Shown one piece after another: positions 33,337-58,522 of a stretch of DNA of 64,000 nucleotides. Source of the stretch: a virus; IMG/VR virus record IMGVR_UViG_3300028840_001508, positions 32,962 to 96,961 of that record. One strand, written 5' to 3'. The position numbers were made by a program, and so were the translations under genes. Numbering within the stretch: position 1 is the first letter of the stretch; every line of letters starts with the position of its first letter. The notes below the pieces were generated by a model. That model was not told the origin of the DNA, did not search any database, and worked only from the letters and a program-made list of their open reading frames with translations.

Positions 33337-33382
33337 AAAGAGGAGACATGCAGTATACCTGCTGTCTCCTCTTTTTTATTTT
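33337..33382 (+). terminator. Intrinsic terminator after the HNH moron
   Basis: AAAAGAGGAGACA...TGTCTCCTCTTTT followed by TTATTTT. Confidence 0.7.
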
Positions 33383-52049: not shown

Positions 52050-52829
52050 CTATCCTGCTGCTATGTATAATCCGTGTGCTTCTTTGACTGTAGAAGGGAT
52101 CTTGATAACTTCTCGTTTTCTTGACTTTATACCTTGATTGGTATAATGCTCAATCAATTCTGCGTAATCATTTTTCAACCAGTAATCCAACAATACTTTA
52201 TCTGGTAACACTCCATATTCTTTCTGTAACTTAACAGCTTTTTCCCTGCCATTCTGCTCATATCGCTGGAAATTTCTCAATGGCGTTTGCTTGGTTTCTT
52301 CTTCTACTTGCGAAGCAACAAATCTTTCTTGTATTGTTTTTTCTTCAGAACTTTCTTGTTCGTCTAAATATCGCGCAACCTTTTTGGACGAGGTTGTGTT
52401 ATATTCGCGCCAGGGTTGCGCGATATTCATACGACCCTTGAATACTTTGTTGTATAAAAATTGCACAACCTCATCAGCCATTCTCAAACTATAGGCTTTA
52501 CTTGGATATTCAGCATGTAAACAATAAGGACACGGTTTTTGAAACCCTATCTTATACCGACATTCACTACAGAAATAGACGACTTCTATCCATCCTTCTG
52601 CTTCCAGCAACTTCAGGGAACTTACTACAGTAGAGCGTGACATACCCAAATCCTTGCAATATTGCGAACTGGCTATTTCATCCCATAGCTTTTGATAACC
52701 TAGCGTTTTCCGCGCTATATAAGTCAGAATAACTTTGGCAGATGGTGATTTGATTTCCTTATACGCTGTTTTGAAAATATCATCAGGAATAGGTGAGGTA
52801 TGACATTCTATGATCTTGCAGTCTTGCAT
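52050..52829 (-). CDS. Phage replication initiator, lambda O-like N-terminal wHTH
   Basis: IP..I.......S..KV...YI.RKT.GYQK..D.I..SQ.....G.SRSTV..SLK.LE..G.I; start ATG after AGGAGG. Confidence 0.75.
   Translation of the reverse strand: MQDCKIIECHTSPIPDDIFKTAYKEIKSPSAKVILTYIARKTLGYQKLWDEIASSQYCKDLGMSRSTVVSSLKLLEAEGWIEVVYFCSECRYKIGFQKPCPYCLHAEYPSKAYSLRMADEVVQFLYNKVFKGRMNIAQPWREYNTTSSKKVARYLDEQESSEEKTIQERFVASQVEEETKQTPLRNFQRYEQNGREKAVKLQKEYGVLPDKVLLDYWLKNDYAELIEHYTNQGIKSRKREVIKIPSTVKEAHGLYIAAG
52367..52471. repeat. Iteron-like cluster/putative origin inside the initiator gene
   Basis: 14-bp inverted repeat AATATCGCGCAACC/GGTTGCGCGATATT; four RCRCAACCY copies; AT-rich flank. Confidence 0.5.
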
Positions 52830-52999
52830 CTGTAACCTCCTAAGCACGAGTCAGGGCGGCAATGCGCTTAGGAGCATCACCGCCTTATCTGACTCAGGTT
52901 ATTGAAGCGGGTGCGAAGCAGCGGCCTACTGCTTGCATTCAATGTAGGTGCAGAGCTATCGCCCTGCATCATACATTATACCACATTCACGCCCCTTTG

Positions 53000-55215
53000 T
53001 CAAGATTCATCCTCTTTACCCTTGCTTCGTTCTGCCAGTTTCTTACCCTCCATGATGCTATCCCACCATGCCAACGTTTTGGGCGGACGGTCTATTATCT
53101 CTTCGCTTTTCGCATCTTTAAGCTGATGCCTATGCCGTCTGAAGAATAGACGCTTGATTATATTAGCCCACATGCCATTCTCCTTTCTGCCTTTGTCAAG
53201 ATTCATCTACTCTCTTACCCGTCTTGTTCTCTTACCCTTCTTGTATTCCTCCAATGCATCACAGTCGTCTACACAGGATAGCGTTCCATCTTCCAGCCGA
53301 TACCTGGCTGTGTTAGGGCATTCATGACAAGGATTACTATGCCATATCCCGTCATCCCCTTCCGCTCTCACACACGCAACCCTCGTTACCGTTTCGCTAT
53401 CCGAGTTTGTCCCGCTCAGTAATCGCAGGCAGGCGTTGTAAGCGTCTAGTTGTCCGTTTCCGAAGTATCTTTGCTCTCTTTTGGTAATAGTACCGATCTC
53501 CCGTATTCTCGCTTCTATCTCGTCTACTATTGCTGTGAGCCGTTCTTCAGTCATTTCCTCACCTCCTCAATCGCTATTCTCCGTCAGTATCAGCAGCTTC
53601 CACCGTCCTATTAGTCTATCCCGCCGTTACCCCCGTTTCTGCCAGTTTCTCGACATCTGTTTCCCCATTCTCTATCATGTATACCAGCATCCACGCCCTG
53701 TCATCCGCCTCAGTCTCATGCTTTTGATTCAAGCGCAAAGTGAACATCCTGTCATATAGTATCTGCAACTGTTCGTCATCTTTTGCAGTAGCCAACAGTA
53801 TCTCCCCCAGTTCAGCGACGGTGAAGGCAGAATAGAAATCGTTGCGCTCCAGCGGCAATAGACTTTTATCCCCGCCCGTATAGCTCAAATGATAGTTAGT
53901 TGTCATAGTGATAACCCAGTAGAATACGCTATCCTGCTTCACACCCAGTTCCTTCAGCTTCTTTGCCAGTTCCAGTAAGCAGACTTGATCTTCGAGTTTC
54001 ACCTTCATCCTCCTTGGGAACAGAAAAATAAATATAGGCATAGGTATTATCAAAGTCATCATCCTCATCACCCAGATAATTTGGATGATGCTTGAGAATA
54101 TCATAAATGTAATAGTAAGCCGTCCTATTTGCACCACCATTTCGAGTTGTGACACAGATAACACACTCACCCTTCCATTTCGATAAACAAATATCCCTAT
54201 ATCTGCCTGTTATCCAGACATGATTCACTATGCAATTCTGGATAAATGCTTGCTTCTCTGCATCCGTCAAGCATTCAAATCCCTGGTAGAAAGCGGGAGA
54301 CCATATACAAATCTCCCCTTCCTCGCACCGTAACGGATAGGGCGGCCACCAGCTATAAACTGAAAAATCAGCATCATCCAATAAACCAAGCATTTTCCGT
54401 AGTGTGTCAGCATTCGGATTCTCGCCAAAGAGCATGTTATAGAGACCCATATCTATTATCCCCTTTCTCCATGTATCTCTCTATCGCTGCCCGGATCCTG
54501 GCAGACCGGGCGTCGTCTATGGATGCCGCTGATTGCTTATACTCTACCTCTTCGGGCTTCTTCTTATCCTTCCGTTTCGCTTTCATCTTTGACCTCCTCG
54601 TAATTCGGCGGCTCCCATAATTTACATTTTCTATATAAACCAACAATTTTTTTTCTGGCTATGCACCAATATGTTCTACCTCGTCTTCTATAGTTTCCAC
54701 AGGTATCACAACAACCACATATATTGTTTTCTGAATTATTCATACCTCCACTTCCTCCCTCTCCAAAGCCTTCTTCACATCCTCTCCCCTGCGTTCCATC
54801 TGCGACAGTACTACGCCCTGGTTCAGCGTGGTTGTTGCACTGTCTACGCTTGCTTTTAGCAGATGGGGCAAGGCTGTTACCCTCGTCTCCTGCCTAACTG
54901 CGTCTATGATCCGTTCCAGTCTTCTGAGTGATATATGTAGATCTCCCATAGCCTTTTCTCCTTTCAGTTAGTATCCTTCTCATCCCAATTAGTCATATCT
55001 CTATGATAGGGATTCCCATGACACAGGCGACGTGCTTTTGCAAAAGGCGTTCTGTCATCCAAACTCCATGTCTGGTATTTTAGCATCCATCGTGAATCCC
55101 TGAAGCCCAAGGTGACGATAGGGATCAATGCGTCAGCTATTCCTATGAGGCACATCACCGGGCGTTCCAGCAGGTTTATGAAGCCGTTAAGCATTGTCAA
55201 GATGTGTTCTTTCAT
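53000..55215 (-). other. Cluster of short hypothetical early genes (53000-53206, 53207-53554, 53616-54008, 53929-54450, 54437-~54600, 54740-54949, 54964-55215)
   Basis: ORF track and RBS; 53616-54008 has a common phage V.LELAKKLKELG motif. Confidence 0.55.
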
Positions 55216-55681: not shown

Positions 55682-55861
55682 TCATTTGTCATTATCACAT
55701 TTTTCTGGTATCCTCTTCCTCAACGTTGTTGCCACAGCCAATAAGTGCTGATTCTTTGCAAATTGTATCTTCTTGCTGTGTTTGGGACACCAAGCACTTG
55801 TATCACTGCCAGCATCCCGAATAAGCAAGGGACAGTTAGCGCAGTATTTACTAGCTTTCAT
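55682..55861 (-). CDS. Small CxxC protein coupled to the Ro60 stop (59 aa)
   Basis: ATGA overlap; MKASKYCANCPLL...WCPKH. Confidence 0.45.
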   Translation of the reverse strand: MKASKYCANCPLLIRDAGSDTSAWCPKHSKKIQFAKNQHLLAVATTLRKRIPEKCDNDK

Positions 55862-57465
55862 ATCGCACCTGCTATAAACTGGCTTATCATTTGCGGCGAT
55901 GCGGTGCTGAAACCTACTACATCCAACATTCCAGCGTCACGAGGATCGGCTATGCTAAACTGGTTCCCTGTCATCGCAACAACTATCAGCTTCGCATCTA
56001 AGTTAAACTGCTGCCTGTATTTGTCCAGTGCTTGCTTGGGATGAATGTCACCGAACCACGTCTCACTGTCAGTGTAGATGATAAAGGCATCGAATTCCAA
56101 CTTATGCACTAATGCCCCTACTATTGGCAAGGCACAATCAGTTCCACCCATAGGCAACCTTACTGTATGTGTAACCAGGTCGTCTAGTCGCTGATGTCTT
56201 AACATATTGATAGGAACGAACCTGTCACAGAATGCCATTACAGCAACTTTCGGCTCAATCTTATACGTCACCATCGACATGGCGCAGGCTCCCACGCGTG
56301 GGGTTAGGGAAGGGATGCCGTTGATACTCCCATAAGACATAGAGCCGCTTATATCTAATCCTATACATATCCGCTTTCCCGATGCTTCCACATTCTCAAA
56401 GGCATCATAGAAAGCACCGTCCAGCGCGTCTATCACATCACCGACAGGATTCCACGACCCGCTTCCCCTGAAGCCGTGTCCCTGGGCGTAGGTACTCTGT
56501 GCGGCAAGGATAGACAGCGGATGCACTCTTGCCTTGTGTATCCGTTCTTTCGTGAGGGCTGACGTGACTTTCTCTATAGTATCAAGCTTACTCTCTATAA
56601 GCAAACCGACCTTGCTCATATTGCCCAGGTTGCGGATCATGGCTGTGAGTGGCATATTCTGAAGCAAGGCGTTCCAGACATCGGGATCAGTGAGCCATTG
56701 GGTTGGGATCATCTCGCGGGTAAGCCTGTATTTGTCTATCATAGTCAGAATAGTATGCTTATCGCTGCAAGCTTTGACTGTATCATATACCTGCAACAGT
56801 TTGGCGGGACAATCATCACCCAACTCGTAATCAAATGTTGTTTTTCCCACAGCCCATGAGAAGATAGTATCTCGTTCCTGCGTCTTCGGCACAGGCTTCG
56901 CCAACCGCAGCATATCCCTGTGAGACCAGCCATCCCGTTGCTGGTACTTCACTACCTGATACGCAAGCCTGTCTATATCCATATCATTATACCACTTCGC
57001 AACAGCAGTCCGAAGCCCGCGCCCCCAGCCACGAAACTGCTCGACAAACTGGGCGAAGTGGAACAGGTGCGTTCCGATACGGCAGACTTTAAGCAATGCT
57101 TTTAGTGCTGCCTTTCGCGTCGCCAAGTCGTCAGCGGCGGAACACATAGCGAGGGCAAAGATAGCATAGTCGTTGTTTGCTGCCCGCCCCTTGTCGCTGA
57201 TCTCGACTATCTCATTGACAGCGCGCAGGCCATCTTGCTCAATACAGCGCATGGTGGCTTCGCAGGCGTCTTTAGCCAGCTTGCGCTCTGATACATAGTA
57301 TGTGCCGCCCTCTGTGCCTAATGTGAGAAAGCGGCGGAACATCTGCCAGTCGTCTATCTCCCAGGCATATCCACCAGCATTGTTTTCGCTCATATCGGTG
57401 CGTCCAGGAATTGGTTCAGTTTGCGGCGTTTGGCGTGTAGAAAAAGAGGAAAGATGCGATTTCAT
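55858..57465 (-). CDS. rsr: Ro60/Rsr (TROVE + vWA) RNA-binding protein
   Basis: NNAGGY...RRFL.LGTEGGTYY; GWGRGLR; KYQQRDGWSHRD; MPLTAMIRNLG; vWA MIDAS DISGSM; GGTDCALP; YTDSETW; true start after GAAAGGAG. Confidence 0.96.
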   Translation of the reverse strand: MKSHLSSFSTRQTPQTEPIPGRTDMSENNAGGYAWEIDDWQMFRRFLTLGTEGGTYYVSERKLAKDACEATMRCIEQDGLRAVNEIVEISDKGRAANNDYAIFALAMCSAADDLATRKAALKALLKVCRIGTHLFHFAQFVEQFRGWGRGLRTAVAKWYNDMDIDRLAYQVVKYQQRDGWSHRDMLRLAKPVPKTQERDTIFSWAVGKTTFDYELGDDCPAKLLQVYDTVKACSDKHTILTMIDKYRLTREMIPTQWLTDPDVWNALLQNMPLTAMIRNLGNMSKVGLLIESKLDTIEKVTSALTKERIHKARVHPLSILAAQSTYAQGHGFRGSGSWNPVGDVIDALDGAFYDAFENVEASGKRICIGLDISGSMSYGSINGIPSLTPRVGACAMSMVTYKIEPKVAVMAFCDRFVPINMLRHQRLDDLVTHTVRLPMGGTDCALPIVGALVHKLEFDAFIIYTDSETWFGDIHPKQALDKYRQQFNLDAKLIVVAMTGNQFSIADPRDAGMLDVVGFSTASPQMISQFIAGAI

Positions 57466-57490
57466 GATGTCTCCTTTCTGGAATGAAAAA

Positions 57491-57556
57491 AGCGGGCAAG
57501 TAATTGAAATGGGAAGATTCAATTCACAGTTGATAACCCATCTCATCCTGCCCGCT
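57491..57556 (-). ncRNA. Short Y-RNA-like element lacking the tRNA-like domain
   Basis: AGCGGGCAGGA...GGGTTATCA...CCCAT...TACTTGCCCGCT; same terminal stem as the two elements upstream. Confidence 0.7.
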
Positions 57557-57564
57557 GACTTGAA

Positions 57565-57680
57565 CCGGGCAAGTCTAAAGAAGTCGATATGCTTTACCAT
57601 TAAGCTACCACCCCGAAGGGTGGGCGGGATTTGAACGCCGCAATCATTTATGCAATGATAACCGACCTCATCCGGCCCAG
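57565..57680 (-). ncRNA. YrlA-like Y RNA with circularly permuted tRNA domain
   Basis: GGGCCGGA/ACTTGCCC stem; T arm with GTTCAAATC; acceptor-like CCACCC-TTCG-GGGTGG; D arm TAGCTTAATGGTAAAGC. Confidence 0.88.
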
Positions 57681-57689
57681 TAGAATTAA

Positions 57690-57813
57690 GTCGGGCGAGT
57701 ATTTGCTATGGATGTTTACGTGCTCTACCAATTGAGCTACGCCCCGAAGGACGACGGGACTTGAACCCGCAACAACGTCATTCAAAATGATAACCCATAA
57801 CTTCCGGCCCGAC
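57690..57813 (-). ncRNA. YrlA-like Y RNA with circularly permuted tRNA domain
   Basis: GTCGGGCCGGA/ACTCGCCCGAC stem; T arm GCGGG-TTCAAGT-CCCGT; CGTCC-TTCG-GGGCG; D arm TAGCTCAATTGGTAGAGC. Confidence 0.9.
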
Positions 57814-57840
57814 AAACCATATTCAATTTTCACATTATGA

Positions 57841-57869
57841 ATTATATCACACCGCTACTATTTTGTCAA
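57841..57869 (-). promoter_or_regulatory. Consensus sigma70 promoter for the Y RNA-Ro60 operon
   Basis: TTGACA-17bp-TATAAT with extended TG on the - strand. Confidence 0.9.
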
Positions 57870-58070: not shown

Positions 58071-58099
58071 TTGACAATCGTAAAGAGTTGTGATATACT
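58071..58099 (+). promoter_or_regulatory. Divergent sigma70 promoter
   Basis: TTGACA-17bp-TATACT with extended TG, preceded by A/T tracts. Confidence 0.88.
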
Positions 58100-58159
58100 T
58101 ATGTATAGAAGGCAAGAGAAAGAAGTTAATTGAAAACAGAAATGAAAGAGAAGCAAACA

Positions 58160-58510
58160 GGGTTACTTGAAATCCTGAGCCATGACCGATAGCAGTTCTG
58201 AATGGCAGACGAAAGAGCGAAAGCAGCTATACTAAGGTCAACGCTAAACAGGCTTAAACCTGAGATTCAAGCGATACTGATATGAGACATACTGGTGAAC
58301 AGAAGGGCAATAAAGCTCAGTTCTATGTCTCACGCATAAAGCGACATATCTTACACACATAGCAAGTATCACGGAGCGAGAGCAGACCGATGCTATGACA
58401 CAGCTTGAGCCGAGCGGTAGCGACGCGATGATGGCTTGAGCAACCGGCAGACGTTACTACTGGTGGAGCCGGTAAGCGCGAACAGATGTTCGGGCAGGTA
58501 GTAACAGGAA
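58160..58510 (+). ncRNA. Putative large structured ncRNA/leader
   Basis: No convincing + strand ORF for ~420 nt after a strong promoter; many nested complementary segments (see findings). Confidence 0.55.
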
Positions 58511-58522
58511 AGGAGATAGAGG

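What the first reader, a model, noticed from the sequence alone, without database searches (positions are those of the whole stretch)
55858..57869. Phage Ro60 operon with a tandem array of three Y RNAs, two mimicking tRNA and one positioned as a possible attenuator
Seen: a perfect TTGACA-17-TATAAT promoter (- strand) is followed by three elements (57813-57690, 57680-57565, 57556-57491) and then rsr. All three share 5' GGGC(C/A)GGA...GGTTATCA and 3' ACT(T/C)GCCC. The second helix covaries between copies (TATGGG/TCCATA, GTCGG/TCGAC, GATGGG/CCCATT). Copies 1 and 2 contain a T arm, then a UUCG-closed acceptor stem, then a D arm, i.e. a circularly permuted tRNA without an anticodon. Established: this is the YrlA architecture; Ro60/Y RNPs work with PNPase and are linked to RNA damage/repair, and some phages carry them. 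Inference: three diversified copies at the start of an early operon suggest tRNA decoys or a salvage system against host tRNA-targeting defences. Copy 3 has lost the tRNA domain and is followed by U6 just before the rsr RBS, so it could be a Ro60-sensing terminator (autoregulation).
Basis: partly seen in the sequence, partly recalled or inferred. Interest (0 to 1): 0.85.

Follow-up and report, generated by a model that had tools for sequence, protein, structure and literature searches.

The report
Phage Ro60 gene with three Y RNAs
An uncultivated 97-kb phage carries the RNA-surveillance protein Ro60 behind three of its partner "Y RNAs" (two with a built-in tRNA look-alike); this gene-plus-RNA arrangement is already known from bacteria and other phages and proves common in phage metagenomes, so it is a clean example, not a new system.

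Summary
A perfect sigma-70 promoter (57869-57841, minus strand) is followed by three related structured elements (57813-57690, 57681-57564, 57556-57491) and a canonical Ro60/Rsr gene (57465-55858). Copies 1 and 2 are YrlA-type Y RNAs carrying a circularly permuted tRNA module. Copy 3 is a short stem-only Y RNA.

This is the published bacterial and phage Rsr/Y RNA architecture (M. smegmatis YrlA-YrlB-rsr; Thermus phage phiLo Yrl1-Yrl2-Ro60). At least 495 IMG/VR contigs encode relatives of this Ro60. A covariance model I built found 1-4 such elements per locus, always on the rsr strand, in 68 of 93 loci searched.

Attenuator idea: copy 3 plus U6 is the strongest hairpin/U-run combination in the window. 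Copy 3 alone has lost the family's bulged C, which gives an unbroken 10-bp GC-rich stem, so a leaky terminator is plausible (about 0.55). A U-run after the last Y element is not conserved (5 of 31 loci), and nothing supports Ro60 sensing. The anticodon-nuclease decoy idea lacks support: the modules have no anticodon loop or free acceptor end.

Side finding: the family keeps the metazoan/nematode Y RNA handle, including UUAYC at fixed spacing.

The scan has noted Ro60/Y RNA loci on much other DNA (1515 notes).

The parts
57841..57869 (-). Consensus sigma-70 promoter (TTGACA-17-TATAAT with extended -10 TG). The start site is expected near 57834.
   Evidence: 12/12 match. Sequence.
57690..57813 (-). 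Y RNA copy 1, YrlA type. Closing stem GUCGGGC/GCCCGAC with bulged C, helix 2, UUAUCA, V hairpin, and a tRNA-like module at 57770-57722 (T arm 57770-57754, UUCG-closed 5-bp acceptor stem 57753-57740, D arm 57737-57722).
   Evidence: RF02553 47.6 bits, model 1-114. (R1 41.3 bits, E 8e-8; not in the training set). (z -3.8)..
57564..57681 (-). Y RNA copy 2, YrlA type. Closing stem ACUGGGC/GCCCGGU, helix 2, UUAUCA, V hairpin, and a tRNA-like module at 57641-57591 (T arm with one bulge 57641-57624, UUCG-closed 6-bp acceptor stem 57623-57608, D arm 57605-57591).
   Evidence: RF02553 29.9 bits over the tRNA-like core. (z -3.6).. (partial R1 hit, 21.2 bits).
57491..57556 (-). Y RNA copy 3, a short stem-only form like YrlB or Yrn2. 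Same handle and UUAUCA, no tRNA module. The bulged C is replaced by A, giving an uninterrupted 10-bp basal helix.
   Evidence: R1 50.7 bits; in the training set. (RF01656 28.2 bits). (z -5.2). (bulge nucleotide C in the rest of the family).
57486..57491 (-). U6 tract directly abutting the copy 3 stem. With that stem it forms a candidate leaky intrinsic terminator or 3'-end signal.
   Evidence: the most stable hairpin before any T>=5 run in the 64-kb window (-29.8 kcal/mol). The short-hairpin scanner does not call it.
57471..57477 (-). Shine-Dalgarno sequence AAAGGAG of rsr, 5 nt before the ATG at 57465.
   Evidence: M1 aligns across 9 homologues.
55858..57465 (-). rsr, a canonical Ro60 orthologue of 535 aa (TROVE HEAT-repeat ring plus vWA domain with a DxSxS MIDAS motif).
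   Evidence: Pfam. (X. laevis Ro60 1yvp 411 bits end to end; human 9nen; D. radiodurans 2nvo). (invariant D371, S373, S375).
55682..55861 (-). 59-aa Cys-rich ORF overlapping the rsr stop (ATGA). Same operon, function unknown, not conserved next to rsr elsewhere.
   Evidence: no family; no tblastn hit in any other locus held at that point.

Best explanation
This is a phage-borne Ro60 (Rsr)/Y RNA ribonucleoprotein module of the known bacterial type.

Host RNA polymerase starts at the consensus promoter and makes one precursor carrying three Y RNAs followed by the rsr message. Host RNases cut the Y RNAs out, as shown for M. smegmatis YrlA/YrlB. Rsr binds their shared closing helix (GGGC-C-GGA paired with ACUYGCCC).

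Copies 1 and 2 present an L-shaped tRNA-like effector module (T arm, loop-closed acceptor stem, D arm). By analogy with Deinococcus, Salmonella and Thermus phage phiLo, this module tethers Rsr to host PNPase or to a factor that binds the tRNA elbow. That would re-direct host RNA decay during early infection.

Copy 3 is the short hairpin form. It keeps the handle but has lost the bulged C, and with its U6 tail it most likely also works as a leaky intrinsic terminator. That would give more Y RNA than rsr mRNA.

Shown here: the anatomy, family membership, covariation, and recurrence next to rsr. Inferred: processing, Rsr binding, the PNPase link and termination (about 0.55 for that step alone).
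For: - Protein: TROVE plus vWA_Ro60. It aligns end to end with solved Ro60 structures at E 1e-116 to 1e-122.
- Rfam: YrlA hits for copies 1 and 2 and an sbRNA-model hit for copy 3.
- Covariance model R1, built from 20 short elements beside other phage rsr genes, finds only these three sites in the window.
- R1 gives 119 hits in 68 of 93 viral and metagenome rsr loci, all on the rsr strand, 1-4 per locus. It gives 24 hits, all on the rsr strand, in 20 bacterial MAG loci.
- Covariation: 90.5% of cells paired against 63.5% in shuffles, and 16 of 18 pairs show double changes. Helix 2 was not used to pick the training elements and still shows double changes at 7 of 8 pairs.
- Literature: YrlA and YrlB lie upstream of rsr, come from one precursor and are Rsr-bound (PMC4201824). 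The YrlA tRNA-like fold is solved (10.1101/312249). Phage phiLo Ro60 binds two upstream Yrl RNAs and host PNPase (PMC12135203).
- Terminator part: the strongest hairpin-plus-U-run in the window. U-runs follow 16% of family members against a 1.9% background. Copy 3 alone has A at the bulge position.
Against: - There are no transcript, processing or binding data. The host is unknown and the phage uncultivated.
- Both YrlA hits fall below Rfam's gathering score (47.6 and 29.9 against 69).
- No relative closer than about 55% Rsr identity was found, so orthologous conservation of the three copies cannot be tested.
- The hairpin before the U6 is 66 nt, far larger than typical terminators, and the terminator scanner did not call it.
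- If termination were efficient, rsr and the small genes between it and the next strong promoter (53003-52975) would be starved of transcripts.
- Loss of the bulged C may mean copy 3 no longer binds Rsr at all.
Confidence: 0.78

Rival explanations
1. Copy 3 is an Rsr-sensing attenuator. Rsr occupancy of the Y array would decide whether the copy 3 stem forms and stops transcription before rsr, giving negative autoregulation. A kinetically workable version: Rsr locks the already-made copy 2 stem. That would prevent an inter-copy hairpin between the copy 2 3' strand and the copy 3 5' strand, which would otherwise delay terminator formation.
For: - The stem plus U6 is terminator-like.
- Prefix folds show an inter-copy hairpin (CUUGCCCG with CGGGCAGG, -13.9 kcal/mol) in the minimum-energy structure while only the copy 3 5' strand is out. 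Native folds return once the 3' strand emerges.
- In 31 related loci the last Y element ends 8-80 nt before rsr.
Against: - The evidence is thermodynamic prediction only.
- Cross-pairing is an automatic property of any tandem repeat with the same stems.
- A U-run after the rsr-proximal element is present in only 5 of 31 loci, no more often than after other Y elements.
- One of the closest relatives by Rsr identity (53%) has A6 there.
- Copy 3 lacks the bulged C of the Ro60 site.
- Rsr needs the formed helix, which exists only once the termination decision is already being made.
Confidence: 0.1
2. Copy 3 is simply a third Y RNA and the U-run is a spacer, processing site or 3' tail with no termination role. 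The whole array and rsr are then one fully read-through transcript.
For: - 26 of 31 rsr-proximal Y elements in related loci have no U-run, so co-transcription without termination is the norm.
- M. smegmatis YrlA, YrlB and rsr come from one precursor (PMC4201824).
- rsr has no promoter of its own.
- The hairpin is much longer than usual terminators.
Against: - Six contiguous U directly abut a 6-bp G/C stem base.
- This is the best such combination in 64 kb, with the same A-stem-U form as the phage's other candidate terminators at 33372, 63489 and 7505/7537.
- The unique C-to-A change makes the stem continuous.
Confidence: 0.35
3. The two tRNA-like copies are decoys or salvage substrates that protect the phage from host tRNA-cleaving defence nucleases.
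For: - Close tRNA mimicry of the elbow: T loop UUCAAGU / UUCAAAU, D loop with GG, U8-A9 linker.
- The Salmonella rsr-yrlBA-rtcBA operon responds to damaged tRNA (PMC7790460).
- The module sits behind a strong consensus promoter, which suggests early expression (inferred).
Against: - The modules have no anticodon stem-loop; that position leads into the Ro60 handle.
- The acceptor stem is closed by UUCG, so the sites cut by anticodon or acceptor-end nucleases are absent.
- The phage genome has no RtcB ligase and no CCA-adding enzyme.
- The same modules occur in free-living bacteria (PMC4201824).
Confidence: 0.06
4. The elements are not stable RNAs. They would be a structured 5' UTR, or decayed tRNA gene remnants, upstream of rsr.
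For: No expression data exist. tRNA genes lie beside Y arrays in some relatives, for example L006 2453-2523.
Against: - The handle, with covariation, is conserved across more than 100 distinct elements from diverse viral and bacterial contigs, always on the rsr strand.
- Arrays also lie downstream of rsr in several loci, which a 5' UTR role cannot explain.
- Homologous RNAs are Rsr-bound in three bacteria and one phage (PMC4201824, PMC12135203).
Confidence: 0.04

Closest known systems
Bacterial Rsr with YrlA/YrlB, especially the M. smegmatis locus (Chen et al. 2014, PMC4201824; Rfam RF02553; YrlA structure, 10.1101/312249)
   Same: - Ro60 orthologue preceded on the same strand by a tRNA-like Y RNA and a short hairpin Y RNA lying between it and rsr, made from one precursor.
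- Permuted T arm, loop-closed acceptor stem and D arm.
- A V hairpin, and conserved T and D stems.
   Different: - Two tRNA-like copies here instead of one.
- The handle is CCGGA(A/U)G rather than an exact GNCGAAN0-1G.
- Both strands of the Ro60 helix are conserved, whereas the literature says only the 5' strand is conserved among bacterial YrlA.
- Scores fall below the Rfam gathering threshold.
- Acceptor stems of 5-6 bp make RNase P cleavage unlikely, unlike the 7-bp M. smegmatis stem.
Thermus phage phiLo Ro60 with Yrl1 and Yrl2 (PMC12135203; PDB 9KOP, 9L5Y)
   Same: A phage-encoded Ro60 with Y-like RNAs directly upstream. Binding, and a ternary complex with host PNPase, were shown experimentally for phiLo.
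   Different: The proteins are barely alignable (E 0.007), while the protein here is a canonical Ro60 (411 bits to Xenopus Ro60). The cited paper mentions no tRNA-like module for the phiLo Yrls.
D. radiodurans Rsr with Yrn1/Yrn2 and PNPase (the RYPER complex)
   Same: Several Y RNAs beside rsr: one with a T-arm or tRNA-like part and one long hairpin, with a metazoan-like Ro60-binding helix. The functional model has the Y RNA acting as tether and gate.
   Different: A cellular, stress-induced locus. No PNPase link is shown for this phage.
Metazoan Y RNAs and nematode stem-bulge RNAs (Rfam RF01656; Kowalski and Krude 2015, PMC4726728)
   Same: - Lower stem GG(U/G)CCGRA paired with CUUG(A/C)CC, with a bulged C.
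- An upper stem, then UUAUC at the same spacing: 17 nt from the first G of GGUC/GGGC in the RF01656 consensus printed.
- A 3' U-run.
- Copy 3 scores 28.2 bits on RF01656, and two relatives pass its gathering score.
   Different: - Made by bacterial RNA polymerase from a polycistronic array, not from single Pol III genes.
- Copy 3 lacks the bulged C.
- No link to DNA replication is known here.

Membership tests
Ro60 / Rsr protein | TROVE HEAT-repeat ring domain followed by the Ro60-type vWA domain | tested here: met
   Pfam TROVE 4.5e-41 and vWA_Ro60 8e-60.
Ro60 / Rsr protein | Full-length similarity to structurally solved Ro60 proteins | tested here: met
   1yvp 411 bits over residues 15-531. 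9nen 401 bits. 2nvo 391 bits.
Ro60 / Rsr protein | MIDAS motif DxSxS in the vWA domain | tested here: met
   D371, S373 and S375 are invariant in the 9-sequence alignment. The motif D-I-S-G-S is visible.
Y RNA (general) | 5' and 3' ends pair into a long stem carrying the conserved Ro60-binding helix with a bulged C | tested here: met
   Copies 1 and 2 meet it: GGGC-C-GGA with ACU(C/U)GCCC. Copy 3 keeps the sequences but has A in place of the bulged C, and the A pairs with U, so for copy 3 this feature is not met.
Y RNA (general) | Encoded next to, and on the same strand as, the Ro60 gene | tested here: met
   26-348 nt upstream of the rsr ATG. All 119 + 24 family hits elsewhere are on the rsr strand.
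Y RNA (general) | Stable RNA bound by Ro60, whose accumulation depends on Ro60 | not testable with these tools
   Needs Northern or RNA-seq data and an Rsr pull-down or gel shift.
YrlA (Rfam RF02553) | Effector domain is a permuted tRNA: T arm, loop-closed acceptor stem, D arm, with the elbow nucleotides | tested here: met
   Met for copies 1 and 2 (alignments; coordinates listed under parts). Copy 3 has no such module.
YrlA (Rfam RF02553) | Score at or above the curated gathering threshold (69 bits) | tested here: not met
   47.6 bits (copy 1, full model) and 29.9 bits (copy 2, core only). Nothing was found at the gathering threshold.
YrlA (Rfam RF02553) | GNCGAAN0-1G motif near the 5' end (Chen et al. 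2014) | tested here: not met
   The window has GCCGGAAG, GCCGGAUG and GCAGGAUG, with G where the first A should be. Across the family that position is A in 56 and G in 54 of 119 hits, so this is a CCGRA variant of the motif.
Nematode sbRNA (Rfam RF01656) | Score at or above the gathering threshold (38 bits) | tested here: not met
   Copy 3 scores 28.2 bits, E 1.4e-3. Relatives L051:1398-1461 (44.6 bits) and L048:1202-1275 (38.1 bits) do pass.
Intrinsic (factor-independent) terminator | G+C-rich stem directly followed by a U tract | tested here: met
   GCGGGC/GCCCGC base followed by U6. The strongest such site in the window.
Intrinsic (factor-independent) terminator | Compact hairpin (short loop), as in typical terminators | tested here: not met
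   A 66-nt hairpin with an internal loop. The consensus scanner did not report it.
Intrinsic (factor-independent) terminator | Transcripts actually end at the U tract | not testable with these tools
   Needs in vitro transcription or 3'-end mapping.

The most novel reading that the evidence does not exclude
The Y RNAs of this phage belong to a large, so far unnamed family of phage and bacterial Y RNAs. The family keeps the whole metazoan/nematode Y RNA handle: both strands of the bulged Ro60 helix, an 8-bp upper stem, and an almost invariant UUAYC exactly 17 nt after the first G of GGGC, as in the sbRNA consensus. If so, UUAUC, known in animals as the motif needed for the DNA-replication activity of sbRNAs, is an ancient feature tied to Ro60 itself. 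Prokaryotic and animal Y RNAs would then be true homologues rather than unrelated partners of a shared protein. Within that frame, copy 3 would be a family member converted into a terminator by loss of the bulged C.
Probability: 0.35. Interest if true: 0.55.

Novelty: new member of a known kind. Interest (0 to 1): 0.35.

Why it matters
As a locus it adds little. Ro60 with upstream Y RNAs, including tRNA mimics, is documented in bacteria, mycobacteriophages and Thermus phage phiLo, and this scan has flagged many such loci.

Its value is as a compact, cleanly bounded example: promoter, three Y RNAs, candidate terminator, RBS and rsr within about 400 nt plus the gene. It could be cloned to ask three questions:
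- how tandem Y RNAs are processed;
- whether a Y RNA stem can double as a terminator that sets the RNA-to-protein ratio;
- what the tRNA-like module recruits during infection.

The family-level by-product may interest Y RNA specialists more. Hundreds of phage contigs carry arrays of 1-4 (or more) Y RNAs. The handle carries the animal-type UUAYC motif at fixed spacing and is detectable with a nematode sbRNA model. Published statements say that bacterial Y RNAs could not be found with metazoan queries and are not homologous to vertebrate Y RNAs.

Tried and rejected
- Rfam at gathering thresholds finds only two tRNAs in the window. The Y RNA evidence needed an E-value scan.
- Closer relatives were sought in IMG/VR, JGI metagenomes and GTDB genomes. 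Nothing exceeds about 55% Rsr identity, so orthologous covariation and conservation of the U6 could not be tested. INPHARED phages give only weak Ro hits in actinophages.
- A hairpin pairing the U-run with the rsr Shine-Dalgarno sequence is no better than shuffles (z -0.06). I dropped it.
- The 59-aa, 150-aa HTH and 83-aa ORFs downstream of rsr have no counterpart next to rsr in any other locus held at that point. I rejected them as conserved partners.
- RtcB and CCA-adding enzyme were searched in the whole phage genome and are absent.
- An alignment-based scan of genome contigs failed for lack of a conserved block. I used the single protein instead.
- My regex for permuted T-then-D modules is too strict: it misses copy 2 and can be fooled by adjacent tRNAs. 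I used it only to say that loci with two or more tRNA-like modules exist.
- The Annu Rev Microbiol 2020 review (PMC10870794) is not held. A search on RNA repair systems plus Y RNA/TROVE/RtcB terms did not surface Burroughs and Aravind 2016. Neither could be read, so prior mention of UUAUC in bacterial Y RNAs cannot be excluded.
Full report
WHAT IS THERE.
The window is bases 32962-96961 of a 96,961-bp IMG/VR virus record with direct terminal repeats and 100% estimated completeness. On the minus strand, a 12/12 sigma-70 promoter with an extended -10 TG lies at 57869-57841. It faces an 11/12 promoter on the plus strand at 58071-58099.

Three structured elements follow the promoter. After them come U6 (57491-57486), a Shine-Dalgarno sequence (57477-57471) and an ATG at 57465 that opens a 535-aa ORF ending at 55858. 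The listed ORF runs further upstream, to an ATG at 57600. The real start is 57465: all nine homologues align from that methionine and it has the ribosome-binding site.

The protein has Pfam TROVE (4.5e-41) and vWA_Ro60 (8e-60) domains. It aligns end to end with solved Ro60 structures: X. laevis 411 bits, human 401 bits, D. radiodurans Rsr 391 bits. It is barely similar to Thermus phage phiLo Ro60 (E 0.007).

THE THREE ELEMENTS.
Each folds significantly better than shuffles: z = -3.8, -3.6 and -5.2.

- All three share GGGC(C/A)GGA, an 8-9-bp helix 2, then GGUUAUCA. On the 3' side they share ACU(C/U)GCCC.
- Read from the folds, helix 2 shows both-sided changes between the paralogues at four of eight positions. 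The outer stem does so at two of three.
- In an E-value scan, copy 1 matches Rfam YrlA over the whole model (47.6 bits, E 1.7e-9) and copy 2 over the tRNA-like core (29.9 bits). Both are below the gathering score of 69.
- Copy 3 matches the nematode stem-bulge RNA model RF01656 (28.2 bits, E 1.4e-3).
- The tRNA-like modules are at 57770-57722 and 57641-57591. Each has a T arm with a UUCAAGU or UUCAAAU loop, an acceptor-like stem of 5 or 6 bp closed by UUCG, a UA linker, and a D arm with the GG of the elbow.
- ARAGORN and the tRNA model do not call them as tRNAs. That is expected for permuted mimics without an anticodon arm.

IS IT MORE THAN CHANCE, AND IS IT A FAMILY?
I aligned 20 short elements found beside rsr in other viral contigs and built covariance model R1 (65 positions, 18 pairs).

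- In the window, both strands searched, R1 hits only the three copies. Copy 1 was not in the training set and scores 41.3 bits, E 8e-8. A lower-sensitivity first-look search of the whole 97-kb genome, which itself missed copy 1, found nothing outside this array.
- In 93 viral and metagenomic rsr loci R1 gives 119 hits, every one on the rsr strand. Hits number 1, 2, 3 or 4 per locus in 36, 18, 9 and 5 loci. Most are upstream of rsr and some downstream.
- In 20 bacterial MAG loci it gives 24 hits, again all on the rsr strand.
- On the model-fitted alignment, 90.5% of cells pair against 63.5% in shuffles and 31-55% when partners are slid. Sixteen of 18 pairs show double changes.
- The lower stem was used to pick the training set, so it is not an independent test. 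Helix 2 was not used, and it already showed double changes at 7 of 8 pairs in the raw MAFFT alignment.
- At least 495 IMG/VR contigs encode relatives of this Rsr.

Relatives with the most similar Rsr also carry arrays. L002/L020 (53% identity) has about four elements between a promoter and rsr. L011 (55%) has four and L012 (54%) three. L005 and L006 each have three or four.

COMPARISON WITH WHAT IS KNOWN.
- Chen et al. 2014 (PMC4201824) reported YrlA-like RNAs next to Ro60 in 254 bacteria and 22 phages. They found at least two Y RNAs in every species studied, one tRNA-like and one a long hairpin. In M. smegmatis, YrlA and YrlB both lie upstream of rsr and are processed from a single precursor.
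- The tRNA-like fold is solved. Most YrlAs are described as permuted tRNAs with closed acceptor stems (10.1101/312249).
- Thermus phage phiLo has two Yrl RNAs upstream of its Ro60. They bind it and form a complex with host PNPase (PMC12135203).

The architecture here is therefore the known one. Two tRNA-like copies in one array is less common but not unique: my conservative regex found 13 loci with two or more permuted modules (with caveats).

THE ATTENUATOR IDEA.
Evidence for a terminator:
- Among all T>=5 runs in the 64-kb window, copy 3 plus U6 has the most stable preceding hairpin (-29.8 kcal/mol).
- Its A-stem-U form resembles the phage's other candidate terminators at 33372, 63489 and 7505/7537.
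- Copy 3 has A where the family has a bulged C. The position is C in 19 of 20 training sequences (copy 3 is the exception), and C in 115 and U in 4 of the 119 model hits. A motif-free scan gave C in 103 of 119, and its few A cases are likely spurious.
- The A pairs with U, giving an unbroken 10-bp basal helix.

Evidence against a conserved, rsr-specific attenuator:
- U-runs follow 18 of 111 distinct family members, against a 1.9% background. The rate is the same for elements abutting rsr (5 of 31) as for others (13 of 80).
- L002/L020 has A6 at the equivalent place, while L011 has U5.
- The scanner for compact terminators does not call copy 3.

Evidence against direct Ro60 sensing:
- The review describes the vertebrate Ro60 site as including the bulged cytidine (PMC4726728), and copy 3 lacks it.
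- Rsr needs the formed helix, by which time termination is already being decided.

A possible indirect route: prefix folds show an inter-copy hairpin (copy 2 3' strand with copy 3 5' strand, -13.9 kcal/mol) in the minimum-energy structure until the copy 3 3' strand emerges. That could make termination depend on whether copy 2 is locked. It is thermodynamic prediction only, and it is an automatic property of tandem repeats.

A second perfect promoter at 53003-52975 precedes the replication-initiator-like gene. Only rsr and the run of small ORFs between it and that promoter would therefore depend on read-through.

My estimates: some termination at copy 3, about 0.55. Rsr-dependent attenuation, about 0.1.

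THE DECOY OR SALVAGE IDEA.
The modules lack an anticodon stem-loop and a free acceptor end. They therefore cannot present the sites used by anticodon or CCA-end nucleases. The genome has no RtcB or CCA-adding enzyme and only three tRNAs. The same modules occur in free-living bacteria. The published suggestions are an effector that binds the tRNA elbow, or protection of the RNA from nucleases. I consider the decoy reading unlikely (about 0.06).

BY-PRODUCT: A METAZOAN-TYPE HANDLE.
- In elements detected without using the motif, UUAYC is present in 96 of 119. It sits exactly 17 nt after the first G of GGGC in 79 of them, and 16-18 nt after in 93. The opposite-strand control found 3 elements, none with the motif.
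- The RF01656 consensus printed has the same spacing and a near-identical 5' strand.
- RF01656 hits nine short elements in 14 other loci at E up to 0.1, and two pass its gathering score (44.6 and 38.1 bits).
- The literature describes UUAUC as conserved in sbRNAs and vertebrate Y RNAs and as needed for sbRNA replication activity. It also says bacterial Y RNAs are not homologous to vertebrate ones (PMC4726728), and that metazoan queries had not found bacterial Y RNAs.
- From memory only, human Y1 and Y4 carry GGUCCGA...G(A/G)GUUAUC with the same 17-nt spacing.
- I found no paper linking UUAUC to bacterial Y RNAs, but key reviews are not in the library.

VERDICT.
This is a new member of a known kind. 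Interest 0.35. The scan has already noted Ro60/Y RNA loci in many other genomes.

Noticed in passing
window 57491-57813 (-); loci L002-L142: UUAYC follows helix 2 at a fixed 17 nt from the first G of GGGC in most rsr-linked Y elements. This matches the spacing in the nematode sbRNA consensus. Nine short elements elsewhere hit Rfam RF01656 at E up to 0.1, and two of them pass its gathering score.
   Followed up: partly
window 57547 (-), the A in GGGCAGG of copy 3: Copy 3 is the only one of about 140 family members with A instead of the bulged C. The A pairs with U and removes the bulge that is part of the Ro60 site in vertebrate Y RNAs.
   Followed up: partly
window 57540-57576 (-): The 3' strand of copy 2 and the 5' strand of copy 3 can form an 8-bp hairpin (-13.9 kcal/mol). 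It appears in minimum-energy folds of transcript prefixes ending between 57545 and 57510.
   Followed up: partly
window 52975-53003 (-): A second perfect TTGACA-17-TATAAT promoter with extended -10 TG lies just upstream of the replication-initiator-like gene 52050-52847 (PHROG replication initiation O-like, 5e-6).
   Followed up: no
window 57827-57833 and 57484-57490 (-): Leader GUGAAAA can pair with UUUUCAU after copy 3, bracketing the whole three-copy array in the minimum-energy fold of the precursor. It is short and A/U-rich and may be chance.
   Followed up: no
window 58100-58522 (+): Downstream of the divergent 11/12 promoter there is a stretch with no plus-strand ORF of 40 aa or more before 58523. 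Another reader of this scan flagged it as a possible structured RNA. Rfam at gathering thresholds finds nothing there.
   Followed up: no
L010:357-481 and 574-692; L012:1072-1197: tRNA-model hits spanning 119-126 nt lie next to phage rsr genes. They may be tRNAs with long insertions, or further tRNA-like Y RNAs read as tRNA.
   Followed up: no
L006:2453-2921: A tRNA gene is followed directly by two short Y elements, each ending in U-runs, then a tRNA-like Y RNA, then a minimal GGGCCGA...CTTGCCC stem, all before rsr. This suggests serial terminator-like Y elements in another phage.
   Followed up: no
window 55682-55861 (-): A 59-aa Cys-rich ORF overlaps the rsr stop codon (ATGA). It has no family match and no counterpart beside rsr in other loci.
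   Followed up: partly
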